Shown here in pieces: positions 26,971-63,820 of a DNA stretch of 64,000 bases. The stretch spans positions 47,995,741 through 48,059,740 of the forward strand of contig CM041465.1 of the NCBI GenBank assembly GCA_023213395.1, written 5' to 3'. This DNA comes from Cycas panzhihuaensis. Taxonomy: Eukaryota; Plantae; Cycadophyta. How positions within the stretch are numbered: the stretch's first letter is position 1; every line of letters begins with the position of its first letter. A program made the position numbers and the translations under genes. A model generated the notes under the pieces. That model was not told where the DNA came from, did no database searches, and saw only the letters and a program-made list of their open reading frames with translations.

Positions 26971-27400
26971 AGATCCACATTAAGAATTGAAAATTTATTA
27001 TAAATTTTGGTATTATTCTTATGATTGATGGAATACCTCTAGTATGTAATGCACTTCTCAAATGTCATCAACCTTGATGACTCAGACCTCAATTTATTTT
27101 TCATATGAACATTAATTCAACAAGATCCACATCGAGAATCAAAAAATTATTATAAATTTTGGTATTATTCTTATGATTGATGGAATACCTCTAGTATATA
27201 ATGCACTTCTCAAATGTCATCAACCTTGATGACTCATACCTTAATTTATTCTCATATGAATATTAATTCAATAAGATCCACCTTGGGAATCAAGAATTTA
27301 TTATAAATTTTGGTATTATTCCTCTGATTGATGGAATACCTATTGTATATAATGCACTTCTCAGATAGAATACCTCTAGTATATAATGCACTTCTCAAAT
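26911..27400. repeat. tandem array, three ~151-152-bp units plus a partial unit
   Basis: ATGTCATCAACCTTGATGACTCA recurs at 26911, 27062 and 27214. GAATACCTCTAGTATATAATGCACTTCTCA-like block recurs four times. Confidence 0.93.
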
Positions 27401-30518: not shown

Positions 30519-30936
30519 CGTTAAAATATAATAATAACTTCTTATACTTTTATGCAATTTTAAATTAAGTCATAACTTAATGCTATATTCCTAGTTAAGG
30601 GTCATCACTCCACCTTTTCCTTGTAACCAACCAATGGGATGTGTCTAATATGAGGGCCAACCAAATGTGATCATATGAAGTCTAATCCACATTCACCATT
30701 TGTAATGTGTGAGATATTGAGCCCTCTATAAATTAAAGCCATGTCCACACCCATTTGTAATGATCTTTGATGAGAGTCTAAACTCTGTTAAAATTCTATA
30801 TTAAGCATGAACTAATTTGATCCTTGAATATATTATGTTCATCTTAATATGTTCATAATATCTTTTGATAACTTTATATTTAATACAAGAGAGTTAAGAT
30901 CCTATTTCAATAATTAGATTAATTTTGATTTTGTTA
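30519..30936 (+). repeat. 5' LTR (418 bp)
   Basis: Colinear with 47311-47728. Confidence 0.92.
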
Positions 30937-33900: not shown

Positions 33901-34269
33901 TTAATATAATGAAAAAACACCCTAAATTAGACTATGTGAGAGAGTCATATAAGGTACAAATCTTGACCATTAAATCTAGGATATTTTGAATGAACGACTT
34001 TGATTCTCTTTATAATTTAGTATGTTTTATAGTGCTAGCTTTTAAGGTTAGGGGCTACCACCCTTAAATCGTCTCTTTGTGGGGGGGTTCTAGTGCCCCC
34101 CATACCCCTTGGCCAAGCAGGGCCTCCACCCCCCTTGGATCCCTCTGCTGAAGTTTAGAGAGGAAACTACACTACCAACCTATCAAAATTTTTGTCCTCA
34201 AAATATTATTGTCACATTATCTAATAATCTCCACCTTGACAACAATTTACCTGAAACCTTTCCTGGACC

Positions 34270-37200: not shown

Positions 37201-38183
37201 GCCCAGTGTCTTATAGGAAACTTCATTTTCTATAAGCACATCACCACCATCAAGAGGTTGGTATGATGAAAACCAACTCTTGTGTGGACACATGTGGTGT
37301 GAAGTACCTAAATCTAATAACCAATCATGATAATAATAGGAAATATTATAAATATCTAAGACATCATCATCATCTGTACCTTGATTTGACTCCACTTGAT
37401 TATCCTCCTTGGCAAGATCTTCTTTTTTTAGAACTCTTTCCTTTTGTAGTAATCCTTCTTGAGGTGACTTGTCTCATTATAGTATTAACATTTGAGTTTA
37501 CTCTTCTTGCCTTTTGACTTTGACCTCAATGTGTCCTTGGAGCTTTGTCCTCTCTCAATCATTTTGCCCCTTACTATCATAGCTTCTAGTGTGGAGGTTT
37601 CAAGATAGGACTTCCTCCTCACCTCTTCCATTAGCAAAGCAATCATAACAGAATCATAGTCTAATTTATTTGTAGTGTTAAAACTAATTGAGATAACAAT
37701 ATTATCCCAAGATTCTAATAATGAATATAATAAGGTAACAACTTTGTTCTCATTCTTAATAGTAACATTGATACTAGCTAATTGATAAATAAGAGTATTA
37801 AAAATATTTAAATAATCAGTAATTTTTGTACCTTCTTTCATCTATAATGAGTGCAACTTCATTATCAAGTAAATTCAATTCGTCACTAATTTAGTCATGT
37901 ATAAGCCTTCCAAGTAGGTCCATAATCCTGCTACTATCTTCTCCCCTGTAATGTTAAACAAAACTTTATCCGCCAAGCATAATTATATTGTGCCAAGAGC
38001 CCTTTTATCCAAATCATCCCATTCATCACCATCTATATTTTCAAGTATCTTCAATTTGCTTGTAAGAGCTCTATACAATTACTATTATACTAAAACATCA
38101 TACACTTTCAACTTCCACAACTTAAAGTTATTTTTGCCATTGAATTTCTCCACCTTAAACTTTTCATTCATAAGTTTTACCAT
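34270..38183 (-). pseudogene. Tnt1-like gag-pol of element A
   Basis: ORF fragments with KVEKFNGKNNF, WLLDLGTSHHMCP, DYVYLDVWG..FIDDYS..LRTDN.GEF, LYVDDML, RVPYAS.V.SLIYAMV. Confidence 0.93.
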
Positions 38184-38854
38184 TTGGTGCAGAAAAAACT
38201 GACACCAAAACCTTCTCAAACTCATTGTAAAAATAAAAGTGGATTTGATACAATTTATGAGAAAACTAGGTCCTAATAACTAGAAACTGCCACCAAGATC
38301 TAAACTATTTTGCAACTAGTTACAGGAATTGAAACTAAAAATTTATATACAAGTTCTTAAACAAGGGATAATATAATAAATAAATAAATAAACTAAAGAA
38401 TCACATATACACCATATATAACATAGTAAAACCCTAGTAGTGTATTAAGAAAACATCCACATCGGAAAGGTATCAATCTTTATTATCCAAGAATATAGAT
38501 ATATACATAATTTGTAGTTGAATACTTATAACAATAACAACCAACCACCTCTACTCCTTATAGTATATCCAATACATTGAATACCATCAATATAATAAAA
38601 AAAAACCTTAAATCAAGTTATATGAGAGAGTTATACAAAGCACAAATCTTGACTATTAAATCTAGGGTATTTGGAATGAATGACCTTAATTCTCTTTACA
38701 ATTTAGTATGTTTTACAGTACTAGCTTTTTGGGTCAGGGGCTCCACCCTCAAACCTCTTCTTTACAGGGGGGGTTTCAGTAGCCCCTGTACCACCCAACT
38801 AAAGGGGGGCTCTCATCCCCCTTGGGTCCCCTTGCAGAAGTTTAGAGAGTAAAC

Positions 38855-41800
38855 TATTAGATAATATAATAATAATGTTTTGGAGGCTAAAATTTTGATA
38901 GGTTGGCAACATAGTTTTCCCCTAAAAACATACTAAATTATAAAGAGAATCATGATCATTCATTCAAAATATCCCAAATTCTATGGTTGAGATTTATGCC
39001 TTGTATGACTCTCTTATATAACCTAATTTAGGGTGTTTTTTCATCATGTCGATTATGTTTGATATATTAGATGTACTGTATTAAGTAGAGGCAACTGGTT
39101 GTTATTGCTATGAGTATTCTACTGTAGATTATATATATTTCTCCATTCTTAGATAATAAATATCGATACCTTTCTTATGCAGATGTTTCCCTAGTACACT
39201 GCTAGGGTTTTACCTTGTTATATCATGTGTATATATGATGCTTTAGCTTTCTAATTCATTTATTATATTATCTATGGTTTAAGAACATGCATGTTAAATT
39301 TTAGTTTTGATTCTCATAACTAGTTACAAAATAGTTTAGATCTTCGTGGTAGTTTTTGGTTATCAGGACCTATATTTCTCAATAAGTGGTATCAAAGCCA
39401 CTTTTATTTTTGTAGTGAATTTGGAAAGGTTTTAGTTTTGACTTTTTCTATACCAAATGGTAAAACTGATGAATGTAAAATTTGAGGTGGAGAAATTCAA
39501 TGGTAAGAACAACTTTGAGTTTTTGAAGCTGAAAGCATATAATGTTTTAGTACAATAAGATTTATACAGAGCTCTTACAGGCAAATTAAAAAAATCTGTA
39601 TAGATAGACAATGACAAACGTGATGATCTAGATTAAAAGGCCTCTTAACATAATACGATTGTGCTTGGTAGATGATGTTTTATTTAACATTGTATAGGAG
39701 AAGACAACATTAGGATTATGGACCCAGTTGAAAGGCTTTTACATGACCAAATTACTGACGAATGAAATATACTTGAAGAGGTAGCAGTTGTCATTGTAGA
39801 GAAGGAAGGTACAAATATTACTAATTATTTAAATATTTTTAATACTCTTATTTATTAGTTAGCTAGTATCAATGTCATGATTGAGGATGAGGACAAGGAT
39901 GTTACCTTATTATGTTCATTACTAGAATCTTGGAATAATATTGTCATCTCAATTAGTTTTATCACTACAGATAAATTAGACTATGATTCTGTTGTGAATA
40001 TTTTTCTAATAGAAGAAGTGAGGAGGAATTTCAATCTTGAAACCTCCACACTAGAAGTTATGATATCAAGGGGTAAAACTATTGAGAGAGGACAAAGCTA
40101 TAGGGACACATCGAGGTTAAAGTTAAAAGGCAAGAAGAGTAAGCTCAGATATTCACACTGCAATAAGACAGGTCACCTCAAGAAGGATTGCTACAAAAGA
40201 AAGAAGTTCTAGAAAAATGAAGATCTTGTGAAGGAGGCTAATTAGGTGGAGTTAAATTAAGGTACATATGATGATGTCTTAGTTGCTTATAATATTTTCC
40301 ATTATCATTATGATTGGTTATTAGATTCAGGTGCTTCACACCATATATGTCCATACAAGAGTTAGTTTTCATCATACCAACCTCTTGATAGTAGTGATGT
40401 GCTTATGGGAAATGAAGTTTCTTGTAAGATAATAGGCATTGGTAGCATTAGAATTAAAATATTCAATGGTGTAGTGAGAATATTAACTGAAGTTAGGCAT
40501 ATAACTAATCTAAAAAAGAATCTGATTTCCTTAGGCGAACTAAATTTTGGTGGTTATAAGTACACAGGTCATGAAGAAGTCTAAGGTGTCAAAGTGCATT
40601 TTGGTTGTTATGAAAGCCTTAAAGAAATGAAACCTTTATATTTTAGTGAGAACTACAAATGTTAGCCATATAATTACAACATCAAAGACTACAAAAGATC
40701 CAGCTCAGTTATGGCGTCAGAGACTTGGGCATATAAATGAGAGAGGACTTAAGGTGATAATGAACCGTAAGTTACTTCCTAACTTACATCTTTCATATTT
40801 AACTTTTTTAAATATTATATTTTTAGAAAGTAATATAGACTCAAGTTTAAAGTAGGAAGTCACACTAGTAAAGGTGTTCTAGATTACATACATTGGATGT
40901 ATGGGGACCAACCCCTACAATATCTTATAGAGGATCATTGTACTTTATCATATTTATAGATGATTACTCCAGAAAGGTATGGGTCTATTTTTTAGAAAAA
41001 GAAATCTAAAGTTTTTAGTATGTTTAATTAGTTCTAGGGTCTAGTTAAGAAAAGCACTGACAGGTCAATCAAATATTTAAGAATTGACAATGGAGGTAAG
41101 TTTAATTCCTTAGAGTTTAAGAACTATTGCAGAGAAGTTGGGTTCAAATGGCATAAGACCACTAAGTATACTTCGTAGTAGAATGGCATAACTGAGTACA
41201 TGAAGATGACATTCCTTTAAAGAGCAAGAAGTATGTTGAGTAATGCAAATATGGAGCAAGGCCTATGGGCATAAGCTATTCAAAAAACTTGTTATTTAGT
41301 AAACTAGTCACCATAACTTGTAATAGACCACGAGATTCTTAAAGAGGTATGCACCGGATATCCATGTGACTATTCAAATTTAAAAGTTTTTGGTTGTGAT
41401 GCTTATGCCTTGATTAATAAAAGTCAACATTTAAAGTTAGACCTGAAATCTAAAAGATGTATCTTTGTTGGTTATGGTGATAGATATAGTGTGAAGGGGT
41501 ACAAGTTGTGGGATCTTAGTGCCCACAAAATCACTATTAATAGAGATATTATGTTTGATGAATCCCTCTTTCTAAAATTAGATAATATAAAATTTAAAGT
41601 GAAATAGGAGTAGAAATCTAAACATTAATATGTCAAGCTTGAGACCTAGCTATCTTTAGAAATAAAAGAGTAGGAAGACCTTTCTAAAGATGAATCTATA
41701 ACAGATTTACAAGAGTATGTGGATACTCCTCCATTAACTGTTAGAAGATCTATATGAGTCAATCACCCACCTGACAGGTATAACCCTTCTATTTCTATTA

Positions 41801-44049
41801 CTTTCGTTTCTAATGATGGCGAGCCTACATACTATTAGGAAGTAGTAGATGATATCCATAGTGAGAAGTAGAAGAGGGATATGCAGGAAGAGATATATGC
41901 TTTAAAGAAAAATAATTTATGGGACTTGGTAGAACTTCTACGTGGTAGGAAGACTATTGGTTGTAGGTGGGTTTTCAAGGAGAAAATAAATGTTGATAGA
42001 AAGGTTGATAAATATAGGGCAAGACTGGTGGCTAAAGGTTTTGCACATGAAGCAAGTATTAATTTTCATGAGATCTTTTTATCAATTGTCAAACTCATTT
42101 CAATTCAGGTTTTATTAGCATTGGTAGCTTTTCTTGATTTGGAGTTGGAGCAGTTAGATGTAAAAATATCTTTTCTACATGGAGATTTAGATGAGAAGAT
42201 CTATATAGATCAGCCAAAAGGGTTTGTATAGGATGGTAAGAAAAGACTTATTTACAAGCTCATGAAATCATTGTATAGCCTGAAGCAATCACCCAGACAA
42301 TGGTACAGGAAGTTTGATACCTTCATGGAGAGCTAAAATTTTAAAAGAAGTGAGTATGATCATTGTGTTTACTTTAAATTCTTAGAGAATAGCTTATTCA
42401 TTATCTTAGTATTTTATATTAATGACATGCTAGTTATAAGTAAAATCATAGCAGAAATCAATAAGTTAAAGGCTCAATTAGCTAGAACTTTTGATATGAA
42501 GGATCTAGGAGCTGCAAAATAAATCTTAGGTATGGAGATACATAGAGACATGCAAAATGGTAAGTTATGGTTATAATAGTAGAAATATATAGAGAAGGTG
42601 TTAACCAAATTTGGTATGGTAAATGTGAAACTAGTGAGTATCTTGTTGGCTTCTCATTTCAAGATTTCTTCGAGTATGAGTCCTCGTAATGAAGAAGAAA
42701 AGAACTATATGTCTTGTGCACCTTATGCTAGAGTAGTAGGAAGTTTGATGTAATCCATTATACATATAAGACCTGACATTTCACATGCATTCAATGTAGT
42801 TAGCAAGTTTATGGAAAATTTAGGAAAGGAACATTGGACAACAGTGAAATGGGTACTTCAGTATTTGAGGGGCACAAGTGACTATTACATCAACTTTGGA
42901 GGTACAAGTAATCAGGTTTATGGATATGTTAATTTAGACTTTGTAGGAGATTTAAGTAAGAGAAGGTCTACTTCATATTATGTATTGACTCTTACAAATA
43001 ATTTGGTGGTTGGATGTCAAAATTACAGAGTACAATTGCATTATCAACTATAAAAGTAGAATATGTTGCTGTAACATATGCTTATAAATAAGTAATCTGG
43101 TTACAAGGTCTATTGGTTGAGCTTGGAAGGAAATAGAAAAAGGTAAAGGTATTTTGTGATAGTCAAAGTACCATTTACATAACAAAGAATCCAACTTATC
43201 ATAGTAGGACAAAGCATATTATGGTTAAGTACTATTTTGTTAGATAGGTTGTGGAAGCAGGTGGAGTGGCACTTGAGAAGGTTAACATAAAATATAATTA
43301 TGCTGACATGTTCATAAAATTAATACTATTGGATAAGTTCAAATGGTGTTTGACTTCTCTTGGCTTGCAAAAAATGTGATGAATGGTCTAAGAAAGGTAT
43401 CAAGTAAAATATTGTTAAGGTGGAGATTATTAAATAATATGATAACAATATTTTAGAGGCTAAAATTTTGATAGGTTAGCAGCATGGTTTCCCCCTTAAA
43501 CTTTCACGAGAGGATCCAAGATGGGCAGGAGCCCCCCTTGGCCAGGGGGTATGGGGGCGATAGCCCCTAACCAAAAAACTAGCACTGTAAAACATACTAA
43601 ATTGTAAAGAAAATCATAGTCGTTCATTCAAAATATCCCAGATTCTATGGTCAAGATTTGTGCCTTATATGACTCTCTCATATAGTTTGATTTAGGGTGT
43701 TTTTTCATCATGTTTATTGTGTTCAATGTATTGGATGTATTGTATTGAGTAGAGGTGGCTAGTTGTTGTTACTGTAAGCATTTTACTGTAGATTATGTAT
43801 ATTTCTCTATTCTTAAATAATGAAGATTAATGCCTTTCCTATGTGGTTATTTCCCTAGTGCACTGCTAGGGTTTTACCATATTATATCAAGTGTATATAT
43901 GATGCTTTAGCTTTCTAATTCATTTATTGTATTATCTCTAGTTTAAAAACTTGCATGTTAAATTTTAGTTTTGATTTCTACAACTAGTTACAAAATAGTT
44001 TAGATCTTGGTGGCGGTTTTCTGGTTATTGGGACCTAGTTTTCTCAATA
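38855..44049 (+). mobile_element. Tork/Tnt1-like copia element B, same family as A, opposite orientation
   Basis: 5' LTR 38855-39384, PBS TGGTATCAAAGCC 39387-39399, PPT AAGGTGGAGAT 43417-43427, 3' LTR 43428-44049, TSD TAAAC/GAAAC (38850-38854 / 44050-44054). Confidence 0.93.
39457..43379 (+). pseudogene. Tnt1-like gag-pol of element B
   Basis: ORFs 39877 (CNKTGHLKKDC), 40399, 40646 (LWRQRLGH), 41410 (KRCIFVGYG), 41881 (IGCRWVF..YRARLVAKGF..QLDVK..FLHGDL), 42811. Confidence 0.93.
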
Positions 44050-47000
44050 GAAACTGTGCTGCCAACCTGTCAAAATTTTAACCTCCAAAATATTATTATC
44101 ACATTATCTAACAACACCTACTCAGGTATAAATAGTCACATTTGGTGATGACATTTCATATAACATGGCTAAGATTAGAAAACCTCCCATAGCCTTAAAG
44201 AATTTAGATATTCATCATCATATAAGTAATGTCCTTTATGTTTTTGGTATAACACAAAACTTGCTCTCTATTAGTTAGATTGATAAGTAGAACTTTGACA
44301 TACTCTTTAGCCAAGAAATATGCACTATTTTAGAGCACTGAACTAGTTAAGTTGTAGTAACATGATATAAAAAACTAGACTACACAAACTTGATGGTGTC
44401 CCACTTTCCGTTGCATAGGATAAAAACTCATGTGCTACTATGCTATCTAATCAATTAGATAAAGGTAAGTAAAATATTATGGAAGACCCGCTTATTAAAA
44501 TGTAGGAAGAATCCTCTCATAATTAGAAGCAACCTACTCAAAAATATACCAAGGATTACCTATGGCATTGATGCCTTGGCCATCTAAATATGTAGAGTCT
44601 TAATCTCATGTTTAGATTTCAAATAGTACATGGGTTATAAAAAAATAAACAAAATAAATATTTCTATAAATCTTGCATTATTGGTAAATAACATAAGTAA
44701 CCTTTCAATCTAAGAAAGTTTTACATGTAATTGAACCATTAGGCTTCTTTCACTCAAATATTTGTAGACCTATGTTATCACCTTCACTCAATAGTAGTTT
44801 GTACTTTATCACTTTTATTAATGATTATTCTTGGAAAGTTTAGGTCTACTTTTTGAAGAATAAGTTTGGGGCCTTTGATAAATTCAAAGATTTCAAAACT
44901 AAAGTGGAAGATGAATCTTGTATGATAATCAAGATTTTACATTCAAATAATAGAGGTGAGTATACTTTAAACCAATTCATCGATTTCTGTAAAGAACATT
45001 ATATTAAATGCTAGTTCTTAACTCCTCATACTCTTTAACAAAATATAGTAACTAAATGCATGAACCAAATATTGGTGAATAAGGCTAAAGTAATGGTTAA
45101 ATCTGTAAACCTTGCTAATTTATTTTGGGCTGAAGCTATTCATACCACTACTTACCTAGAAAATAGGAGCTCGACTTTAGCTATAAAAAATATGACATCA
45201 AAGGAAGCTTGGTTAGGATAAAATCCTATAGCCTCACACTTCAAACATTCAAATGTAATACCTATAAGTTTGCTACAAAAGAAAATAGAAAGAAACTTGA
45301 TGATAAAAGCTTGAAGTGCATCTTCATAGGCTATGTACCTAGGTGCAAAGCTTATAAGGCATATGACCTTATTAGAAGATAAGTATACTTATCTTGGTAT
45401 GTTATATTTATAGAAGACAATCAAAACTTGGTTCAATATCAACTATAGTTTCTAGTAGATGATGATTTTAATATTTTAGAAGTTCCTCTTGCACTAATTA
45501 TGGACCCTTATGCTCCTTCAACCTCATATACTCTATGTTCATCATCTACTCCTCCTATAGCTCTATCTACTTCTATAGAAAGCTCTGCATTACCACCTTT
45601 ATCTCTAAACGACATTCATATTGAAGCTAAAAGTATCAAGAAGCTTCCTACGTGGTATTTACAAGTTGTGAAAGATGCACCGTCAACTTTTACAATATTA
45701 AAAAGGTAATCAAAGTTGAGACATACAACCAACTTTGCTTTAATGGCACAAGTTTTTAATGATCTCAAGCCTTCCACCTTTGAGGAGGAAATCAAAGAAT
45801 AATTTCAGTACGAAACTTTGGATGAGGATATGTATTCCATCCTAAAAAATGATACTTAGGAGCTTACTGAATTACCTCCTAGAAAGAAGCCAATTAATCA
45901 TCATTAGATTTATAAAACTAAGTATCATGTTGATGACTCCATTGAAAGACACAAAGCATGTATTACTATGAAAGGATTTAAATAATAAGAAGACATTGAT
46001 TATAATCAAACCTTCACACCTGTTACCAACATGACAACATTCTATCTAGTTATGTCATTAGCAACTTAGTTCAAATGGCTTGTCTATCAAATGAATGCCA
46101 AAAGTGATTTTTTCAATGGAGATCTTTTTGAAGAAGTTTACTTAAGACAACCTCTTGACTATATTATTTTTGAAAAAGAACATTTAATTTATAAGCTCAA
46201 GAAAACTCTATATAGACTTAAGTAGGCACTTAATGCTTGGTATGTAAAGATTGATACCTTTTTTCTCAAGCATGGATAGAACTATTCATCCTCTAATCCC
46301 AATTTGTACATTCACATCTACAATAATCTAATCACCATTGTTGTTCTCTACATTGATAATTTATCAATCATTAGAAATGATGATAAAGGGATCTCTAATC
46401 TCCAATAAGAATTTAAAAGTAACTTTAAGATGACTTACCTTGTACTGCTCCACTATTTCCTTGGCATTGAAGTGTGGTAAGAACTAAGATATATTTTCTT
46501 ATCACAATCCAAATATACAAATGATCTCTTGTAGTAATTCAAAATGAGTGACTGCAAACCTTCATCTATACCTATAGATACAAGAACCAAGTTGACCATG
46601 AATGAACAAGGCAAACCTATTTATCCCACTCTTTATAGACAGTTTGTAGGGAGTTTGATTTATCTTATTTATACTTACCCTGATATATCATATGCAGTTA
46701 GGATTTGCTCTAGGTATATGTCTTAGAATAAGATGTCTCATTAGAAATATATAATCAAAATTCTCAAGCACATTCATATCACCTTATAGCATGGAATAAA
46801 CTATATCCAAGTTAAAGCTCCTATTTTAAAAGGATTCACGAATGTAGACTGAGCTGGTTGTTAAGATTCTTTCCATTTTACTTCATGATACTTTTTTGAC
46901 CTAAACTTAGTTATTATTTCTTGGAGTTATAAGAAATAAATAAATGTTGCTCTTTCCTCCACTAAAGTAGAATATAAAATAGATGTTCATGCAACTACTA

Positions 47001-47310: not shown

Positions 47311-47728
47311 TGTTAAAATATAATAACAACTTCTTATACTTTTATATAATTTTAAATTAAGTCGTAACTTAATATTGTATTCCTAGCTAAGGGTCATCAC
47401 CCTACCTTTGCCTCATAACTGACCAATGAGATGTGTCTAATATGAAGGCCAATCAAATGTGAGCATGCGAGGTCTAATCCATATTCACCATTTGTAATAT
47501 GTGAAGCATTGAGACCTTTATAAATTAAGGCCATGTTGACAATCATATGTAATGATCTTTGATGAGAGTCTTAGCTCTATTAAAATTCTATATCAGGGAT
47601 TAGCTAATTTGATCCTTTAATATATTGTATTCATCTTAATGTGTTTATAATTTCTTTTAATGAATTTATGTTTGATACAAGAGAGTTGAGATCCTATTTA
47701 AATAGGTATATTAATTTTGATTTTATCA
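47311..47728 (+). repeat. 3' LTR (418 bp)
   Basis: TGTT...ATCA termini, after a PPT, colinear with 30519-30936. Confidence 0.92.
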
Positions 47729-52924: not shown

Positions 52925-55486
52925 TGTTTCCCGGCTTCCGGGAATGGATACGGAATCACCGACTCAGGTAAGTGCAGGTATGTCTCTAGCATTATCATCA
53001 CTTTGTGTCTTGATTATGCCTTACATATTTGCATCGTATGACTTTGTGGGCGGCTGGTCGTCGTCCACACCTATGTTGAACCTGGGACGACTACAGCAGG
53101 GGCACACACTTAGCGAGTGTGGCACCGTGGTGACCGTATTACTTCCCGCATCTGCCCTCCTCTCTCCAGGACCCAGGGTTTGCGCCACCTCCACCCGTGT
53201 GATGTCTCATCGTCGCTTGGTTAGCTTGCCACCTCATTTGGGGGCCTATTTACGCTCCCGTGGGCCGTTTCTTGGCTTGTTTGCTCCGGGTGGGTGTTTT
53301 AGTTGTCCTTTAGCCTTTTCTACCGCTTGCCCCCGGCTGGACCGGTTGGCGGGCCCCATTTGTGTCTCTGGTGCATCTGGCCGTAATCTTGGCAGTCAGC
53401 CATGATCTTGGCATGCATTTGGAATTTTCAGTGATCATTTGGAATATTCATGCAGCTAAAATTTCCATGATACTGTTGTCTCTGTTTGTTTTAAAATCCC
53501 ATGGTGGCGATTTCGCATTTATTAAAGCGCCACGTGGTTCGCCTTTTTCCCTTCCGGTAGTACCTATTCGCGTACTTTAGGGTTTTCCTTTAGTACTTAA
53601 GCATCTTTTAGGACTTTTTTGGATCTTTTTACTCACTTTTGGAAGTTACTCTCGAAAACTCTCTCTGCTTTCTGCTCTGCTTTCTGCTTCTTCTTTGCTG
53701 GACTGCACTCTTCATCTGGCCGACTCTCCTTCGGCTCGGTTGAGACATTCTCTCAACCCCTCAAGCGCCTTGGAGAGGGCTCCTTTGAAGCGGTTTCCAG
53801 CCGGTCTCTATCCAGGCAGTCCATGAGCCCTACGTTTGCAGGTGTTCTCCATCATACTGTAGCAGGCCTCAAACTTTTCTGCTCGGATCTGAGGCATTTT
53901 CCGGCCCTCCTTCATTCCTTTGGTGAGGCAAGCCTTGCCTCTTCCTCCCAGGTACTCTTTACTTTTTGTTAAGTTCTTTGCAATATTCTTGCTCCAACTC
54001 ATTTGTTCATGTTTGTTGCTTGAAGTTTGATCCTCTTTCCTTTGTGAGGACTGCTGTTCCACTTTCTCTTGTCTCTTGCCTGCGTTTCTTTGTCCAAAGC
54101 GGTGAGTGAGGTTGCATAGGCTTTGGGAGAGGAGCCGGGTGGATTAGTACCACCTTCCACGCTCCCGCAGCGGCTCCAAGCCCTCCAAAGCTTCCCTCTC
54201 GCCCCATGTTGCTCTTGGCCATCTAAACAAGGGTTTAGAGACTCCAGGTCGCCCAAACCAGTGACATCACGAGTTGCTACCGATTTGGGACCCTTGCTCA
54301 GTTTGGGAATCATTCGTAGTTCTCAACTACCATTCGTGGCTTTGCCTTTGCTCCCCGGTTACCCGGTTTGCTCCCCGTAGCATCCCGGTTCCCCGTGGGT
54401 GTCTTTGGGTCTTTCTTGCTCCTTTTTGCTACTATTTTCTAGCCTTGAGTCTTGACTTTCTCCTCATTGCCCGTGGCTCTTGGGGAGAGGTTTGGGCACC
54501 ATTTATGCGGTAGGCCACTCCGAGGCTTACCTTGTTGTCCCACTTTATTTAGAGTAATTTTTTCCCTTGATTTCCTCCTCGTTGGACTAACATTGATGCA
54601 TGCCTATTTGGATTCTGACTTATGTTGATATATATATATTGTTAGACCTTGTGCGTTGCATGTTAGTACCCTCCTTCGGGAGGAGGAAGATCTTTGTCAC
54701 TTGCAGGTATTTGAGACGCACGGAGAACGTTACCCGTTGATTTCTCTATCGGTGAGCGCCTCTTGCATGTGTTACAACTTACGTTATCTCATTTCCTAGT
54801 TAGCGTTTCCTTCTTTCTTTCGGTATTGCACTTATTTTCCGGGGAAGGTAAGGAAGCCCTGCTTTCATGCTCGCCTCACATCCCATGCGTTGCGTGGAGC
54901 GGTTGGGTACTCCTCGTGCGGGCTACATCACCTCGCACGCCCTTAGTCCAGGTACACATTTCCTCCTCTTGCGTACTCTTGTTCTTTTCCTTTTCTTCCT
55001 TAGTAATTAAGACATTGAAGATTAAAAGGAAAATTACCTTGTGTTTATTTGTTACGTATTTACTTCATTTGCATGCACCCCTTCGTCCGTAGGAAAGGTT
55101 GTAGGAGCCTTCTTGATCCCTACTTTTCCTTCCTCCCTTAACCGCACGAGCATCTCGCCTCCCGTCGTTCGTGTCCCCGGTTAGGTTGTGTAGGGTTGCT
55201 TTTGGCCTATCCCTCCTAGGTCCCTTCTCTCTCCCTTCTGTCCACCCAAGGGTGGGAGGGTCCTGCCGGGCCAACTCGGGTCATCTTACGTGCCTTCGCC
55301 TCTTTATCCAAGGTGGTGAAGGGTCACCCGATAGTAGCCATACTCCATTGCGGATCCCGAACTCGCTCCCGTGCGCAGGCGCCTGCGTGTAGTTGCTTGC
55401 CTTGTAGGTTCCACTTCCCTCTGGTTTCGTCACCATCTCTCCCCCGCGCCTATCAGTCAGGCGGTTATCCCAGTAGCTGGCGTCCA
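52925..55486 (+). repeat. 5' LTR (~2.56 kb)
   Basis: TGTTTCCCGG...GCGTCCA termini, colinear with 61285-63820. Confidence 0.95.
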
Positions 55487-55504
55487 TGGCGACCATCTTG
55501 GGGA
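55487..55504 (+). promoter_or_regulatory. primer-binding site, tRNA-Arg type
   Basis: TGGCGACCATCTTGGGGA directly follows the 5' LTR and resembles the Tat/Ogre PBS TGGCGACTCCACTGGGGA. Confidence 0.7.
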
Positions 55505-55780
55505 GCCAAGAAGGGAGCTAGTCTCGCTCTCTTGGTTGGTTTCGCTACTCTGTGTGATCCTTTCTATACATCTTGACCTCCACGTTGGGCGCCCCAACGC
55601 GTGTTATACCATTCCTTCTCTTTTCCCGACATCGCTTGGCCGACCTTGCATGCGCTTGGTTTCTCTCGTCGTTTGCGCGGTCTACCCCTTTGTTAGAAGA
55701 CCCCGAGTATAGCCTTCTTGCCTCGTCGGATCCGTCCGACTATGGAAGGGTACTCTTCCGATTGGACCTATCCCGCCTTG

Positions 55781-58700
55781 CTATGGAAACCCAAGCTCTT
55801 CCTTCATCATTCGAGTCCACCCAAGAGGGTGACGACTCCTTTACTACCCGATCGATCAACACCTTTCTTGTGCTCCCCATCCTTCTACCGACGCCAGTAG
55901 AGGGATCCGTTCCTCCCGAGGATTGCCACGCGTTGGCGATTTTATGAGGAACCTTCGGATGGACATGCCTTGTTCGAGGTCCCGATCACCTCTTATGGGT
56001 ATGTGGGGACTCCTCCGTTGACGTGCTTGAGGCTCTTGACGGATGCCGTGCGGCATGCTCTCAACCACGTCCCGAATGGCTTGAGGGTGTCTGCGCAGGG
56101 AGCCTCTTCCTCCTCTCGCTCTTCCCCTCACGCTTCATCCTCGTCGCCTTTCTGTGACAACAAACCCTTTCGTGCCTCTGCGTACACCCCATTCGTTTCT
56201 GCAATGGGGGCACGTGTGGCACCTTCCATCCCTTATCAAGGCCCTAATGCCTTAAGGCCTTCTCACGGTGTGTCGGTCCCTCAACTGGGGTTAGCATGCA
56301 GTTCCCGATCCAACTAATGTCTGGTCCCTAATCGGCACATGCCGCTCCTAGTAGGCCTAGTCGCCTGCTAGCCTTCCAGTACCGATCGGTGGGATTCGTT
56401 CCCACGCATCCTCCAACCCAGTAGCGTTGGTGCTTCTTTCTCGTTCCCCGGTATACTTCTCAACCTTGGGGGCAGGGTAGGAAGCCGTCTTCTTGTTTAT
56501 GGGGTGGATCCGCTACACCCATACGGAATGGCCCCACCTACGGGTGGCAGTATGGGCGTAACCTCGCATCCCTCTTGTCCCCATCCAATGCAGTTCCATC
56601 CGTTGTGCCTTCGCAAGGGAATCTGACTCCCTTCCAAGGCGCCCTTTTTCCCGCTCCTTGTCGTGAGGGTGGTTCCTCAAGGAGGGATGGGTGTCCTACC
56701 CCCATCCGCTCCTTGCGCGCCACCTACTTCGACGTTCGTTGATCCTACGGTTCAGGCAAGGGCGCGCCCCTTCGTGGACTTTAGGTCAACCCCTCTCGGT
56801 TGAGGCGTTGCGAACCAACTTGCCGCCTCATCCTCCCGAAGTTCCTAGATTCGATGGGACTTCGTCGCAAGACCCGGCGGAGCATGTCCGTAGTTTCTCT
56901 ATGGCATGCATCGATTACTGGGCTTACGACCATATTTTGATGAAACTCTTTCCTCGATCCTTGCAGGGTGACGCCCTTAAATGGTTTTATCGTCTCCGCC
57001 CACTCGATCTATTCATTCCGGATTGGTGGGACGAGTTCATCAATTACTTTGATGTAGCTCGCCCATTCGAGGCGGGATGAAATCCCTTCTCTCGCTCAAA
57101 CAAGGTCACGATGAGATGAATCGTGACTTTGTGCGGCGATTCCACGATCGCTTCACTCCACCAAGGCGACTTTGCGAGGAGGCCGGGACCTGTTTGTCAA
57201 TGCACTTCGTCCCGAAGTCCACGTGGAAGTCCTCAAGATGGGGGCGACCACGTGCGATTCCGCGATCGCCAAGTGCTTGGCGTTGGAGGCTATTGAGATC
57301 CAAGCTGGTCTCATGGAACCTCTTAAGCCCTCACAACGCCGTGAGGCACCACCCTACCAAAGACACTAAACCTTCTCAGCCGACGCGGTCTTCCTCTCAT
57401 CCTACCGAGAGGACCTTAGATCCCCTCACCTCGGCTATACGCTCGTTCGAGCGTACGATGAAGGAGCTCAAGCTTCAAGGTCCTTCGTCTCCTACTTCAA
57501 ACAAACAAGTCCAACAAACTACCCAAGTTCCTCTTCCCAGGAATGGGAACACCCAGTCCTCCCAAGCGAGAAGGTCAGGCCCTCGCTTGAGAAGAAGTGG
57601 TGTTCCATTCATGGGGATTGCTTCCATGACGATTCACGTTGTAGGGCCCGGATCCAAGGGATGCCCCTCGACGCGATTCCTCTCCCAAAGCAGGCCTCAA
57701 GGCCTAATCTAGACCAACCGTTCACAAGGATCCGTTCCTAAACATGGGGAACGTGATCACAACCCCCAAACCAAGAACAACCGTAGCAGGAAGATCACGA
57801 TCCACCCGCCTTCCTGCGACAAAGGGAAGGGCGCCGAACTCTTCTTCCTCTTCTCGTTCTCCTGGCCAGTACTCGTCGCCTTCACGACCGGAATAGGGAG
57901 GAAGGTGATTCGATTGTTTGAAGCAACTCACTTTCGCCCTTACGCGATCTCAAACTGCTAAGGAAGCGGCGGGGGCTGCCGGTTCTTCCGTTCCTTCCGA
58001 TCCCCTTCCGGAGGCCCTTCCTCCGGAAATCCCCCTTTTCCCCAAGGCTATTCACCTGTGGCGGTCGTTCACGACTTCGAAGGGCACTTACCCAACCCAC
58101 TGGGAAGGGTAAACCCTTCTCCGTCGTGGGCGAGCTCCATACGGTCGCTGCAGGAATGTCCTTGATGGACGTTCTGAGGAGTTGTCCCGAGCAACGGGCC
58201 CTCCTCTTGGAAGCTTTAGGATCGGGAGATGTGCCTATCCACGCTTTGGGCGTCGCCCAAGGTGGCGGACCCACTATTTCCTTCGATCCTAAGGATCTTC
58301 TCCCGCCGGTGAGCAGGGCGTCGGTGGAACTTCCCATTCACCATCACGATCGATCGCTGATTGTACCCTCCAAGAATCGACTGTTCGGCTCTTACGTCGA
58401 TGCCATGCCCTTGCGTGTTATGCAAGAGCTTGGTATCTCATATGGAACCGTTCCTGGCGATGCCAAGGGTATGACGGTGGCGAGAAGACCCTCTCGGATG
58501 TCGCGATCCCGCTCACCCTTGGGGCAAACTGCCTCTTGCCGATGTTGTAGTCCTCGGCGTTGGCGTGGATTACAACCTCCTTCCTGGTCGCCCATGGCTC
58601 GACCAAATGGGAGCCGTGTGTTCGACCCTTTGGGGGCTTAAATTCGTCCATGACGGACGAATGAGAGTGGTTCCCGTGAACGTCCTTTGCCAAACAAACT

Positions 58701-58918
58701 CGTTATGCCAATTCGGCAAACCAAGGTTCACCCACTCACGCCTCGGCTTGTTCAATTGGTATACCCAATCCGTCAAGAAGATCCCACATCTTCCCTTCCT
58801 AGTCTCGACGTTTTGCCCTATTGGCGTCGGAGTTATGGGTACCTTGCTTCGCTCAAATGATGATGAATCGCTGACGAGACGAGGGTTGTCTCCACCCATT
58901 TCTTTCCTTGGCCAATAG
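55781..58918 (+). pseudogene. gag-protease of the Tat-like element (frameshifted)
   Basis: Pro/Ser-rich N-terminus; gag capsid motifs VPRFDGTSSQDPAEHVRSF...KLFPRSLQGDALKWF (ORF 56691), LLSLKQG..E..RDFVRRF; protease motifs GS..DAMP..VMQELGI and YNLLPGRPWL..MGAV.STL (ORF 58565). Confidence 0.88.
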
Positions 58919-59043
58919 GTCGCACTGCCTCGCTCTAGACCCTCGTTTGGAACCTCTCGTTGGCGAGACTAGCCCCTCGCGTGTCACACACCATCGCTCG
59001 TCTTGACCCGCCGTCGATTCTTCTTTTTCATTACCCCCCGCAG

Positions 59044-59821
59044 GTGATGGTTTTGAGGAATTGCCTTTCGCTCCTCTCAAGGAGCCTCTTTCTGGTTTTC
59101 CTTCAGATTTCCATGAAGGAGTTGAGCGATCCGATGATCACCCCGGTCCCGTTGCTCCTTTCCCTTCTAGCGCTTCTTCTACTCGAAATAGGGTCATCCA
59201 TGGAGTGGACTATTTCGAGGATGATGAAGCCTCGCTGAGCACCGCGGCCTTGCACCTAATCGCCTTCTCCGTCACCACCGGCTCGGTCACGGAAGATCCT
59301 GCGATCGGATCCACGCCGATCCGATCCCCTCCTATTCCTCCTCCTCCTGTTGATCTTGCCCCTCTTCACTTTGAAGAGGGCAATGCCATGTGCATGGGGG
59401 AATTCAAGGCGTAGTCTTGGCCCCGCAAGGTCATTAGGGTTGGGGCTAATGCTCTCTGATGAGATTAGGGAATATTCCCTTCTGCTCCGTGAATTTCGAG
59501 ACATTTTCGTGGGATTATGTCGACATGAAGGGAATCGACTCTCGATTGTCACTCATAACCTCACCACCCTTCCCGGCGCCCACCCCTGCGCACCAGTGCG
59601 TCCCCTTCACCAAGCTTTACGCCACCGTCAAGATGGAGGTAGAAAGGCTTACGGATCCGAGCTCGAATATCTCCATGACCGTTTGACCAAATTCCAACCC
59701 GTTGGTCGGTCCTTTGTCATTATCGAATCTCTCGATAATGGTGCCTATAGGATAGCCACCTGGAGGGCTCGAATTTGAGAAAGCCGTTAATGGGATGTTC
59801 CTTAAGAAGTTTTACGCTTGA
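59044..59821 (+). pseudogene. deleted pol: pre-RT region fused directly to the integrase C-terminal tail
   Basis: LLREFRDIF/SWDYVDMKGID/IVTHNL.TLPGA/VKMEVERL is followed within ~60 nt by TKFQP...IIESLDNGAYRIA...NGMFLKKFYA* (stop 59819-59821). Confidence 0.85.
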
Positions 59822-60509
59822 CCCTTCTACGATCCCTCGCCTCGCCTCCAAACGAGCCTAAACTACCATCTTAGGTTGTCCCCATTCTTCCCGTGGCGTG
59901 TAGAATGGCTATTTAAGATGGACCCCGCTTTGTCTCTCTCGGGTTCCGTCTGAGCCTGCGTTCCGTATCCTCTCGGGAACCTTGGTCCTCTCGCTTGGGC
60001 ATCTCCCAACCGGGAGGACGCTTGGGGCATTGTTGCCCCTCTTTCTGTCTGGCGTTTCCTTCGCATATCCCGTTATGCTCTCCTGCGGAACATGTATGCC
60101 GTCCTACTTCCTAACCTCACACCTCCATGTCGCCCCAGCTCACGCGTGGGTGTGTGCCCTGATAGGTGTGTGTGGTTATACATGGAAGGAAACGTGTGCA
60201 TCATACTATAAAATGTTCATAACATGAATCACCTACTACACAACATAACACACACCCCATGCACGTACATATCAAAATCATGTCATCATACATCCTGGAA
60301 GCCGGTGTCCTCAGGGGGGTACAATCATATGGTCCTATATATGACCCCACAGGCCCGTGCTTTCCTCCGCCAAACCGTCCATCCATGTTCATCTCGTGTG
60401 GCCCTACAGGTTACCTCATTGCTAGGTCCTCCTACCCTTGACGCCACCGTTGTCTGCTTTCTAAGTGTTGCCTTAATCACCGATCATCCGCTTGGATTTT
60501 GTGTCACCT

Positions 60510-60959
60510 ATGTCCATTTACATCTTTACCGACGGAAGTCACAGAACTCGACCTTCAAACAAGTGGATTCTCCGCCCTTCCGGGTTATGATCTCCTCCGC
60601 CTGGGATCTTCCTCCTGAGGCTACCAACAATGAAGCCGAGTATACACCGCCATCAAGCCCTTACCGATGCCCTTCGTTTCCATCACGGACCCATTGTTTT
60701 GCTGCGACTCTCAAGTTGTGGTGTCTCATCTCACCCAGTTCACCGTGCGATGCCCTCACTGAGGACTCTTGCTTCGCCGCCAGATCCCTCTGGCCCGCTT
60801 TCTCTTGTTGATATCCAAGATATCCCTCGGGCTCTCAACGCCGAGGCGTATAGCCTTGTTCGCCTCATCCTTGAGCGCCACTGCCTCGCCTGCCGACCGT
60901 CCCCGAGTCTTGCTTGGCCTTTCCGCCCAAGCCTCGTGCCGTTGGTCGCTTCCGCTTGA
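60510..60959 (+). pseudogene. stand-alone archaeal-type RNase H (aRH) ORF, frameshifted in this sequence
   Basis: MSIYIFTDGS (ATG 60510), TNNEAEY (60623-60643), CDSQVVVSHLT (60703), DIPRALNAEAYSL (60819-60857). These are the four RNase HI motif blocks in the correct order and spacing. Confidence 0.85.
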
Positions 60960-61284
60960 TTTGCTCGCACCTCCAAATCGGGTTGCTAACGAGGTAAAAC
61001 TATGGTACCCACCATTTGTTCCCCATGTGGTCCTGCATGCTCCTTTGCATTCATTGTGGTGGGCGGCCCCTCACTGTCTCTTTCTCCCACGGTTTCGTGT
61101 GGCTCATAGGCCTATGTTGTCTCCACCGCTTTCAGTATCCACGCTTCGCCACGACACTCGCAAGACCCTTGCCCACCGATCCGATCTTGATTGATATATC
61201 TATATACACATGCATCGACAGCGGTTGTGTTGCCAAGATTCGCCATCGCATCGAGCCCGAGCTGGCGAGGCTCACGCCATAAGG

Positions 61285-63820
61285 TGTTTCCCGGCTCCCG
61301 GAATGGATACTGAATCACCGACTGTAAGTGCGGTATGTCTCTAGCATTATCATCACTTTTGTGTACCGATTGTATGCCTTACATATTTGCATGCGTATGA
61401 CTTTGTGGCGGCACGGTCGTCGTCCACACCTATGTTTAGCCTATGACGACTATAGCAGGGCACACTCTTAGCGAGTGTGGCACCTTGGTGACCATATTAC
61501 TTCCCATCCGCCTCCTCTCTCTCGGACCCATCGGGTTTCGCCACCTCCACCCGTGTGATGTCTCATCGTCGCTTGGTTAGCTTGCCACCTCATTTGGGGC
61601 CTATTTCGCCCCGTGGGCCCGTTTCTTGGCTTGTTTGCTCCCGGGTGGGTGTTTTAGTTGTCCTTTAGCCTTTTACCGCTTTGCCCTCACTGACCGGTTG
61701 GCGGGCCCCATTTGTGTCTCTGGTGCATACCCGTAATCTTCATGCAGCCATGATCTTGTGATCATTGGAATTTTCGCAGATCACTGGAATATTCACATCG
61801 CTAAAATTTCCGCAGACGACTGCCTCTGTTTGTTTTTAAAATCCGTGGCAATTTCGCATTTATTGCGAAACTGCCACGTGGTTCGCGCCTTTTTTCCCTT
61901 CCAGCCGTGCCCTATTCGCGTACTTTAGGGTTTTGCTTTAGTACTTAAGCATCTTTTGGGACTTTTTTTGGATCTTTTTACTCACTTTTGGAAGTTACTC
62001 TCAAGAAAACTCTCTCTGCTTCTGCTTTCTGCTTTTCTTCGCTGCCGGACCTGCACTCTTCATACTGGCCTTGACTCTCCTTGGCTCGGTTGAGACATTC
62101 TCTCAACCCCTCAAGCGCCTGAGAGGGCTCCTTGAAGCAGTTTCAGTAGGCCTCTATCCAGCAATCCATGAGCCCTACGTTTGCAGTGTTCTCCATCATA
62201 CTGTAGCGGGGCCTCAAACCCGCTGCTCAGATCCGGCATTTTTCCAGCCCTCCTTCATTGTCCTTTGGCTGAGGCAAGCCCCTTGCCTCTTCCTCCCAGG
62301 TACTCTTTACTTTTTTGTTAAGTTCTTTGCAATATTCTTGCTCCAGCTCATTTGTTCATGTTTGTTGCTTGAAGTTTGATCCTCTTTCCTTTGTGAGGAC
62401 TGTTGTTCCACTTTCTCTTGTCTCTTGCCTGCATTTGCTGTCCAAAGCAGCGGCGTGAGGGGTTGCATAGGCTTTGGGAGAGGGGCGGGGTGGCTTCCGT
62501 ACCGCCTTCCACGCCGCCCCAGCGGCTCCAAGCCCTCCAAAGCTTCCTCTCGCCTCATGTTGCTCTTGGCCATCTAAACAAGGGTTTAGAGACTCAGGTC
62601 GCTTAAACCAGTACATCACGAGTTGCAGTGATTTGGGACCCTTGCTCAGTTTGGGAATCATTCGTAGTTCTCAACTACCATTCGTGGCTTTGCCTTTGCT
62701 CCCTTGCGGTTTGCTCCCCGTAGCATCCCGGTTCCCCGTGGGTGTCTTTGGGTCTTTCTTGCTCCTTTTTGCTACTATTTTCTAGCCTTGAGTCTTGACT
62801 TTCTCCTCGCTGCCCCGTGGCTCTTGGGGAGAGGTTTGGGCACCATTTGCGGCACATAAGCCACTCCGAGTCCTACCTTGTCGTCCCACTTTATTTAGAG
62901 TATTTTTCCCTTGATTTCCTCCTCGTTGGACTAACATTGATGCATGCCTATTTGGATTCGACTTATGTTGATATATATATATTGTTAGACCTTGTCGTTG
63001 CATGTTAGTACCCTCCTTCTGGAGGAGGAAGATCTTTGTCGCTGCAGGTATTTGAGACGCACGGAGAACGTTACCCGCTGATTTCTCTATCGGTGAGCGC
63101 CTCTTGCATGTGTTACAACTTACGTTATCTCATTTCCTAGTTAGCGTTTCCTTCTTTCTTTCGGTGTGCACTTATTTTCCGGGAAGGTAAGGAAGCCCTG
63201 CTCGCCACGCCTCACATCCCAGACGTTGCGTGGAGCGGTTGGGTACTCCTCGCGGGCTACATCACCTCGCACGCCCTTGGCCCAGGTACACATTTCCTCC
63301 TCTTGCGTACTCTTGTTCTTTTCCTTTTTTCTTCCTTAGTAATTAAGACATTGAAGATTAAAAGGAAAATTACCTTGTGTTTATTTGTTACGTATTTACT
63401 TCATTTGCATGCACCTTATCGTCCGTAGGGAAAGGTTGTAGGAGCCTTCTTGATCCCTACTTTTCCTTCCTCCCTTAACCTTGACGAGCATCTCGCCTCC
63501 CGCGTCGTCGTGTCCCCTGTTAGGTTGTGTAGGGTTGCTTTTGGCCTATCCCTCCTAGGTCCCTTCTCTCTCCTTCCGCCACCCAAGGGTGGAGGGTCCT
63601 GCCGGGCCAACTCGGGTCATCTTACGTACCTTCGCCTCTTTCTCCAAGTCGGTGGAGGGTCACCCAAGAGTAGCCATACTCCATTGCGGATCCCGAACTC
63701 GCCCCACGGGCGCAGGCGCTCTGCGTGGTAGTTGCTTGCCTTGTAGGTTCCACTTCCTACCGTTTCGTCACCATCTCTCCCGCGCTATCGATCAAAGGTT
63801 ATCCCGTAGCAGCGCGTCCA
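61285..63820 (+). repeat. 3' LTR (~2.54 kb)
   Basis: TGTTTCCCGG...GCGTCCA termini, followed by CTACT and AT-rich host sequence. Confidence 0.95.

What the first reader, a model, noticed from the sequence alone, without database searches (positions are those of the whole stretch)
60510..60959. Stand-alone archaeal-type RNase H gene downstream of pol in an element that has lost its own RT and integrase
Seen: YIFTDGS, TNNEAEY, CDSQVV and IPRALNAEAYSL occur in order across frameshifts. They begin at their own ATG (60510), about 690 nt after the pol stop codon (59821), so they are not fused to the polyprotein. The fourth catalytic Asp position reads Tyr (EAYSL vs the usual EADxL). Established: Tat-lineage gypsy elements carry an additional archaeal-like RNase H, usually inside pol, and placement after integrase is the rarer arrangement that I recall from gymnosperm Tat clades. 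Inference: here aRH may be an independently expressed accessory gene, for example clearing RNA:DNA hybrids or R-loops or acting in trans for helper elements, and it was retained while RT-RH-INT was deleted.
Basis: partly seen in the sequence, partly recalled or inferred. Interest (0 to 1): 0.75.

Follow-up and report, generated by a model that had tools for sequence, protein, structure and literature searches.

The report
Truncated Tat retrotransposon keeping RNase H
This plant retrotransposon copy carries an archaeal-type RNase H region behind the end of its integrase, a layout already described for gymnosperm Tat elements, and it likely kept that region passively when one internal deletion, also seen in other copies, removed most of reverse transcriptase and integrase.

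Summary
The motifs are real. A profile of 31 natural prokaryotic RNase HI proteins ranks 60617-60881 first in the window (25.9 bits; best of 100 shuffles 12.5). Asp, Glu, Asp and the archaeal-type Arg are present; the fourth Asp reads Tyr. The region lies 688 nt after the pol stop in a 10.9-kb LTR element (52925-63820).

This layout is published: the 'post-integrase' structure #3 (TatIII, Tat H/I) of Pinaceae, Ginkgo and Cycas, drawn with aRH as a solo ORF.

The frameshifts and the Tyr say little. The two LTRs differ by 100 gaps against 113 substitutions; five other repeat pairs in the window show 0-13 gaps per 100 substitutions. That points to local sequence error.

Added here: the RT-to-integrase deletion is not private. 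Contigs bridge the same junction in 2 of 4 public runs (depth 248 in one), beside undeleted copies. This is a non-autonomous subfamily with helpers. Because aRH lies outside the deleted block, keeping it needs no selection. Separate expression, selection and R-loop roles are untested. The subfamily offers a natural test of whether the solo aRH works in trans.

The parts
52925..55486 (+). 5' LTR (TG...CA)
   Evidence: blastn self-match to 61285-63820, 90% identity, 104 gap openings, 122 mismatches. The flanks TCTAC / CTACT agree with a 5-bp target duplication only if offset by one base.
55487..55504 (+). primer-binding-site-like stretch directly after the 5' LTR
   Evidence: Begins TGG next to the LTR end. 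Likeness to the tRNA-Arg type is recalled, not tested.
56835..57642 (+). gag remnant (capsid-like part and a Cys/His knuckle), frameshifted in this copy
   Evidence: Pfam Retrotrans_gag E 0.12 and Gag_p24_C E 0.011, both below the curated cut-off; motif positions.
58393..58700 (+). aspartic-protease region, frameshifted in this copy
   Evidence: Natural relative P0001 matches in three frames at 76-92% identity, E 6e-18. P0001 hits Peptidase_A2B at E 0.025 and RVP_2 at E 0.13, below the cut-offs.
59420..59659 (+). stub of the reverse-transcriptase start, cut by the deletion
   Evidence: Motifs recalled from Tat/Athila pol (positions); contigs of other copies run on into different sequence after 59650 (table 7).
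59659..59660 (+). deletion junction (RT core, native RH and integrase core missing), shared with other copies
   Evidence: Bridged by X4 record 30 (88 nt, depth 248) and X15 record 6 (68 nt, depth 8); shorter RT-side overhangs in X16 (3 contigs) and X18 (2).
59660..59821 (+). integrase C-terminal tail ending in the pol stop
   Evidence: GPF/Y-like and terminal motifs recalled (positions); contigs of undeleted copies carry other sequence before 59660 in 4 of 4 runs.
59822..60509 (+). 688-nt spacer between the pol stop and the aRH ATG
   Evidence: 8, 7 and 2 stops in the three frames; no Rfam match; 60100-60400 folds no better than shuffles, z 0.43; TATAWA at 60207 and 60336, not tested against chance.
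60510..60881 (+). archaeal-type RNase H (aRH) region: Asp 60531, Glu 60638, Asp 60706, Arg 60828, fourth-Asp position Tyr 60849; five frame changes in the profile path over 60617-60881 and more before it
61285..63820 (+). 3' LTR (TG...CA)

Best explanation
The stretch is the post-integrase archaeal-type RNase H region of a Tat-type LTR retrotransposon that has lost its RT, native RNase H and integrase cores by an internal deletion also present in other copies, and it was likely carried along passively because it lies outside the deleted block. How it most likely works: (1) Full-length parents have the order gag-PR-RT-RH-INT, stop, spacer, aRH (the order of the remaining parts is shown here; the full order is from PMC10508981 Table S3). 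(2) Their native RH is degenerate (reported for all aRH-bearing Tat structures in PMC10508981; not testable here), so the RNase H steps of reverse transcription, template removal and primer processing, would fall to aRH. It would be made as a small separate protein from a sub-genomic or spliced RNA and act inside the particle (inferred). (3) One deletion joined the RT start to the integrase tail (shown). The shortened element kept both LTRs and the primer site and was likely copied by RT and integrase from undeleted helpers (undeleted copies shown; complementation inferred). (4) The breaks and the Tyr in this copy are likely mostly sequence errors of the assembly, not features of the family.
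For: RNase H identity and type. The Arg-type profile scores 27.8-32.8 bits against 17.9-19.2 for a His-type profile; five size-matched Arg-type subsets score 19.1-23.7 against 17.9 at the stricter penalty. On the C-terminal part the scores are 10.7 against 0.6. There is no second aRH-like peak in the element (next 9.1 bits). Published layout. Local noise: the LTR pair has 100 gaps, 113 substitutions and ts/tv 1.3; five other repeat pairs have 0, 0, 7, 13 and 37 gaps for 24, 59, 98, 135 and 786 substitutions, ts/tv 1.7-3.7. That rate predicts 6.9 indels in 60510-60860 and a 21% chance of a change in one of four catalytic codons. Contigs of other copies differ from the window by short indels at six listed places in 60600-60775, at 100% of depth at one of them in 4 of 4 runs (12 of 294 rows shown); 3 of the 5 frame changes lie within 7 nt of such a place. 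Shared junction and undeleted copies. Non-autonomous elements that keep gag-protease are common.
Against: No Pfam hit for RNase H on single frames; the test rests on my own profile of prokaryotic sequences, and the Arg-type path does not join the first Asp to the rest (scored apart, 8.1 bits; the His-type profile scores that N-terminal piece higher, 18.9). No plant aRH relative came back from any search, so clade membership and the family's fourth catalytic residue are untested. The RT-stub and integrase-tail labels rest on recalled motifs. Given the indel rate, stops in the spacer do not alone exclude a continuous frame in accurate copies; one frame has only 2 stops. All contigs shown in 4 of 4 runs differ from the window inside the in-frame stop at 60474-60476, so the upstream limit of the ORF is uncertain. 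The X4 bridge has only about 31 letters on its shorter side, contig depth is not a copy number, X4's library type is not on record, and X4 may be the window's own source. Short contigs do not link the junction to aRH in any copy other than the window. No clear polypurine tract is visible before the 3' LTR.
Confidence: 0.68

Rival explanations
1. Semi-autonomous partnership: the deleted subfamily is kept by selection as a supplier of Gag-protease and of the solo aRH, which complement full-length elements in trans, while it borrows RT and integrase.
For: The junction recurs, at depth 248 in X4 against 354-565 for X4's other high-depth contigs along the element. In that contig the RT-side and integrase-side frames join without a shift (worked out from positions; a 1-in-3 chance). 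Wheat Sabrina_SA keeps an intact Gag-protease ORF and is proposed to contribute protein (PMC9744471). The ATG sits where free RNase HI proteins start.
Against: Retention follows from geometry alone. There are no data on selection or on an open aRH frame in junction-bearing copies. The fourth Asp reads Tyr in the one linked copy.
Confidence: 0.17
2. aRH is not independent: it reaches Pol as a C-terminal domain by splicing, read-through or a continuous frame that errors hide here.
For: [quoted passage not shown] One spacer frame has only 2 stops, and 60212-60811 is open for 199 codons.
Against: The TGA follows the usual last motif of integrase (recalled). The later papers draw a solo ORF. The Met lies at the native start position of free RNase HI.
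Confidence: 0.1
3. The copy is simply old and the frameshifts and Tyr are true decay of a dead insertion.
For: The LTRs differ at 4.6% of columns by substitution; public contigs hold at most 15% of its sampled words.
Against: Older repeat pairs in the same window have far fewer gaps per substitution and higher ts/tv. Some contigs match with more gaps than substitutions, for example 1 substitution and 5 gaps over 170 nt (table 8).
Confidence: 0.12
4. aRH has become a host-serving or R-loop-clearing accessory gene.
For: Archaeal-type RNase HI has broad substrate range in vitro (PMC9719913 passages).
Against: It sits inside a two-LTR, high-copy repeat (10,802 and 41,162 contigs laid in X4 and X15), with no sign of a single conserved locus.
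Confidence: 0.03

Closest known systems
Tat structure #3, 'post-integrase' (clusters Tat H in Pinaceae, Tat I in Ginkgo and Cycas; PMC10508981, PMC13468544); TatIII of REXdb (PMC6317226); lineage III of PMC4408406
   Same: aRH lies after integrase and outside the pol stop; it is of the archaeal type with Arg; LTRs are long; the target duplication is probably 5 bp.
   Different: RT, native RH and integrase cores are deleted, giving 10.9 kb against 12.7-17.3 kb for TatIII. The surveys classify by RT phylogeny, so such derivatives would likely fall outside them (inference). Fourth Asp is Tyr in this copy. No antisense PMD ORF was detected (low sensitivity).
Non-autonomous gag/protease-keeping LTR elements: TR-GAG type, wheat RLG_Sabrina_SA, beet GAG/PROT families, non-autonomous Retand (PMC9744471, PMC13570524, PMC11963269)
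   Same: Both LTRs and gag-protease are kept, RT and integrase lost, and copies share the structure and depend on helpers.
   Different: This one also carries an enzyme region (aRH) behind the deletion. The passages I read name no such case; beet families with leftover pol domains are described as decayed.
Archaeal-type RNase HI (Pfam RVT_3, PF13456; haloarchaeal, Bacillus and actinobacterial members fetched here)
   Same: D-E-D core, TNNxAEY helix, Arg followed by a short loop before the last helix, Met seven residues before the first Asp.
   Different: Tyr at the fourth Asp position; the NPG turn after the first Asp is not matched; carried by a retrotransposon.

Membership tests
Tat structure #3 / TatIII | aRH placed after integrase | tested here: met
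aRH at 60510-60881 follows the integrase tail and stop at 59821; no second aRH peak in the element.
Tat structure #3 / TatIII | aRH in an ORF separate from pol | tested here: inconclusive
   Stops in all three spacer frames and a Met at the native position, but about 2% indels in this copy and no accurate full-length relative.
Tat structure #3 / TatIII | RT phylogeny within Tat H/I | not testable with these tools
   RT core deleted; no plant Tat reference proteins returned.
Tat structure #3 / TatIII | Degenerate native RH | not testable with these tools
   Native RH lies in the deleted block.
Tat structure #3 / TatIII | 5-bp target duplication (92% of TatIII) | tested here: inconclusive
   Flanks TCTAC and CTACT agree only with a one-base offset.
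Tat structure #3 / TatIII | tRNA-Arg or tRNA-His primer site (79% of TatIII) | not tested
   A TGG-starting site follows the LTR; no plant tRNA set was compared.
Tat structure #3 / TatIII | Host among Pinaceae, Ginkgo or Cycas | not testable with these tools
   Organism names are coded; no genome is held.
Archaeal-type RNase HI (aRH) | Conserved Arg in place of the His loop | tested here: met
   Arg at 60828 aligns to column 115 (Arg in 23 of 28); C-terminal score 10.7 bits for the Arg-type profile against 0.6 for the His-type.
Archaeal-type RNase HI (aRH) | First three acidic residues D, E, D | tested here: met
   60531, 60638, 60706; each column is invariant in 28 of 28 profile sequences.
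Archaeal-type RNase HI (aRH) | Fourth acidic residue (Asp) | tested here: inconclusive
   Tyr in this copy. A change in one of four catalytic codons has about 21% chance at this copy's substitution rate. The position was not among the 40 of 526 rows shown, so the family state is unknown.
Non-autonomous LTR retrotransposon subfamily | Lacks RT and integrase cores but keeps two LTRs | tested here: met
   (no YxDD or HHCC pattern in the element).
Non-autonomous LTR retrotransposon subfamily | Same defect in more than one copy | tested here: met
   Junction bridged in 2 of 4 runs with different organism codes and studies; depth 248 in X4; shorter support in the other two. Copy number is inferred, not measured.
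Semi-autonomous (intact Gag-protease) type | Intact gag-protease ORF across copies | not testable with these tools
   The window copy is too noisy and the contigs too short.

The most novel reading that the evidence does not exclude
An amplified, cross-species subfamily of RT-less Tat elements keeps an intact solo archaeal-type RNase H under selection and supplies it, with Gag-protease, in trans to full-length partners whose native RNase H is dead. That would be a division of labour in which a non-autonomous retroelement contributes an enzyme, and the first evidence that the post-integrase aRH works as a free protein.
Probability: 0.17. Interest if true: 0.62.

Novelty: new member of a known kind. 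Interest (0 to 1): 0.32.

Why it matters
The layout is known, but how an RNase H outside pol can serve reverse transcription is stated as an open question (PMC10508981), and whether it is a separate ORF has been disputed (PMC13468544). A multi-copy derivative that lost RT but still carries aRH separates the two. If aRH decays there, it matters only in complete elements. If it stays under purifying selection, it acts in trans. The case is also a warning that frameshifts inside high-copy repeats of this assembly are unreliable.

Tried and rejected
No whole genome is held, so copies could not be counted or aligned.

Pfam on single ORFs and single frames: no RNase H hit. No PMD or other domain in 12 frames of the 5' region, gag-pol and the antisense 3' region apart from a weak Gag_p24_C. 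A Pfam score for the whole broken domain is therefore lacking.

Protein searches: 0 hits from the aRH frame (18 candidates), the gag frame (13) and P0001 among longer proteins (275). The exhaustive search with the protease frame gave 2 unnamed proteins. These blanks show poor coverage of plant retroelements, not novelty. Locus searches in viral and metagenome contigs found nothing, nor did tblastn of the C-terminal piece in plasmids. The ESM Atlas could not read the sequence.

Expression: no RNA holder listed. Contigs from X1 (kind unknown) and X23 (RNA is a guess) lie on the aRH stretch, but contig depth cannot rank parts of an element, so I drew nothing from them.

Spacer: no Rfam family, no unusual fold. 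The sigma-70 scan does not apply to a plant.

Earlier findings of this scan: none.

Rejected: structure #2 (aRH before RT), since no second aRH-like peak lies between protease and RT stub; a one-off deletion or assembly artefact at the junction, since other contigs bridge it.

In building the RNase HI profile, 127 matching ORFs were reduced to 31 at 75% identity and L001 and L005 were left out. Three His-type phage sequences were in that first profile and were moved to the His-type control.

Full report
Setting. The finding lies in a GC-rich (about 50-55%) island in a window that is otherwise 27-41% GC. A self-comparison gives two LTRs, 52925-55486 and 61285-63820, both TG...CA, so the element is 10.9 kb. 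The flanking five bases agree with a target duplication only with a one-base offset. Inside are a primer-site-like stretch, gag (weak Pfam hits below the cut-off), a protease region (natural relative P0001), the start of RT, the tail of integrase with a TGA at 59819-59821, a 688-nt spacer and the stretch in question. The RT-start and integrase-tail labels rest on motifs I recall from Tat and Athila pol; no profile confirmed them. No whole genome is held.

Is it an RNase H? Pfam found nothing on single frames, as expected when the right frame changes every 10-25 codons. I therefore gathered natural RNase HI sequences from plasmids, phages and archaeal genomes (Pfam RVT_3 confirmed on two of them), reduced 127 matches to 31, and aligned the profile to the window DNA with frame changes allowed. 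The best score on both strands of 64 kb is 25.9 bits at 60617-60881 with five frame changes; the next is 14.5; 0 of 100 shuffles of the element interior reach it (max 12.5). A 28-sequence Arg-type profile scores 27.8-32.8 and a 10-sequence His-type profile 17.9-19.2; five size-matched Arg-type subsets score 19.1-23.7 and 24.1-28.7 at the two penalties. The type call rests on the C-terminal part (10.7 against 0.6 bits); the N-terminal piece scores higher with the His-type profile (18.9 against 8.1). Asp 60531, Glu 60638, Asp 60706 and Arg 60828 are present, and the fourth Asp column (Asp in 26 of 28) holds Tyr. The Met at 60510 is seven residues before the first Asp, as in three annotated free-standing proteins in the alignment.

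Are the breaks real? Probably mostly not. The two LTRs differ by 100 gaps and 113 substitutions with ts/tv 1.3. Five other repeat pairs in the window show 0, 0, 7, 13 and 37 gaps for 24, 59, 98, 135 and 786 substitutions. Indel noise confined to one high-copy element is what failed polishing of a long-read assembly gives (inference). Half the LTR rate predicts 6.9 indels in 60510-60860 and a 21% chance that one of four catalytic codons changes. Contigs from four public runs differ from the window by short indels at six listed places in 60600-60775 (12 of 294 rows shown), and three of the five frame changes lie within 7 nt of one. The Tyr codon was not among the 40 of 526 substitution rows shown, so the family state there is unknown. 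In Sulfolobus RNase HI, changing Asp125 spared hybrid cleavage (PMC9719913 passage); that this is the fourth acidic residue is my recollection.

Is it separate from pol? The spacer has 8, 7 and 2 stops in its three frames, and the pol stop follows the usual last integrase motif (recalled). At this error rate that is suggestive, not proof. All contigs shown in 4 of 4 runs also differ from the window inside the in-frame stop 36 nt before the ATG, so the ORF's upstream limit is open. The spacer has no Rfam match and no unusual fold.

Is the deletion private? I laid four of the 23 listed runs on 59585-59735. In all four, contigs show other sequence before 59660, and in X4 contigs run on into other sequence after 59650; these are undeleted copies. 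One 88-nt contig in X4 (depth 248) and one 68-nt contig in X15 (depth 8) bridge the junction with about 31 letters on the shorter side. X16 (3 contigs) and X18 (2) show shorter RT-side overhangs. The four runs carry four organism codes and four studies. Depth 248 is about half that of X4's other high-depth contigs along the element (354-565), so the deleted form is likely a large part of the closest subfamily there. Depth is not a copy number, X4's library type is unknown, and X4 may be the window's source. In the X4 contig the frames on both sides join without a shift, which has a 1-in-3 chance. No contig links the junction to aRH.

What is in print. PMC10508981 (whole main text; supplement parts 1 and 3 and a search) lists structure #3, aRH in a separate ORF, in Pinaceae (Tat H), Cycas and Ginkgo (Tat I). 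[quoted passage not shown] It reports degenerate native RH in all aRH-bearing structures and asks how a separate ORF could function. PMC13468544 (passages) names it 'post-integrase', draws a solo ORF and notes earlier disagreement. PMC4408406 (passages and section 6) put lineage III aRH at the C-terminus of Pol and gives Arg as the archaeal-type marker. PMC6317226 (passages; Additional file 5) gives TatIII 12.7-17.3 kb, a 5-bp duplication and mostly tRNA-Arg priming. Non-autonomous elements that keep gag-protease are described in PMC13570524, PMC11963269 and PMC9744471 (passages). Four searches (listings, plus the passages named) showed no non-autonomous post-integrase Tat derivative that keeps aRH; the library lacks most subscription journals. 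The REXdb FASTA and element table were too large to read and the authors' GitHub data are out of reach; they hold TatIII aRH sequences that bear on clade and on the fourth residue.

Mechanism. Shown: order of parts, RNase H identity, Arg type, deletion junction, junction-bearing and undeleted copies. Inferred: in full-length parents the dead native RH is replaced by a small aRH protein from a sub-genomic or spliced RNA; the deleted form is copied with helpers' RT and integrase; aRH rides along because a single deletion inside pol cannot remove what lies behind the pol stop. An RT-RH-INT block of roughly 2.5 kb (recalled domain sizes) would put the parent near 13.4 kb, inside the TatIII range. 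I give this 0.68, selection for supplying aRH in trans 0.17, true decay of this copy 0.12 (not exclusive of the rest), fusion to Pol 0.10 and a host role 0.03.

Verdict. A real feature and a known arrangement: a new member of the post-integrase Tat kind, here in a non-autonomous subfamily. It works like TatIII by layout; formal membership by RT phylogeny could not be tested. Interest 0.32, mainly because the subfamily makes the open question about the solo aRH testable by dN/dS and long-read RNA.

Noticed in passing
window 52925-63820: Indel noise is confined to this element (4.0 gaps per 100 nt between its LTRs against 0-2.3 in older repeat pairs), so first-stage findings about frameshifts in high-copy repeats of this assembly need caution.
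   Followed up: yes
window 61260-61284: No clear polypurine tract before the 3' LTR; only a short purine run. It may be a collapsed homopolymer. It is of interest because this tract is the RNase H-resistant primer.
   Followed up: no
window 60207 and 60336: TATAWA matches in the spacer, about 300 and 175 nt before the aRH ATG; candidates for an internal promoter, not tested against chance.
   Followed up: no
window 58700-59420: About 700 nt between protease and the RT stub, Pro/Ser-rich in translation, with no aRH-like score; it could be a linker or an Ogre-like spacer.
   Followed up: partly
window 33573-44111: Two copia-like copies of about 4.6 kb in opposite orientation (34097-38714 and 43557-38925, 82% identical), with 460-600-nt LTR-like repeats; the second-best RNase H profile peak (14.5 bits, minus strand near 34362) falls here.
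   Followed up: no
window 30520-30932 and 47312-47724: 413-nt direct repeats, 86% identical with no gaps, 17 kb apart: likely the LTRs of an older element into which the copia copies inserted.
   Followed up: no
window 5568-7842: A 328-nt direct repeat pair (93%) with short inverted repeats around 5606-5795 and 7590-7645.
   Followed up: no
window 26687-27401: Tandem units of 59, 152 (three copies, 91%) and 34 nt, partly repeated at 8887 and 23055-23327.
   Followed up: no
window 1061-2830: Integrase HHCC pattern followed by a YVDD motif in copia order.
   Followed up: no
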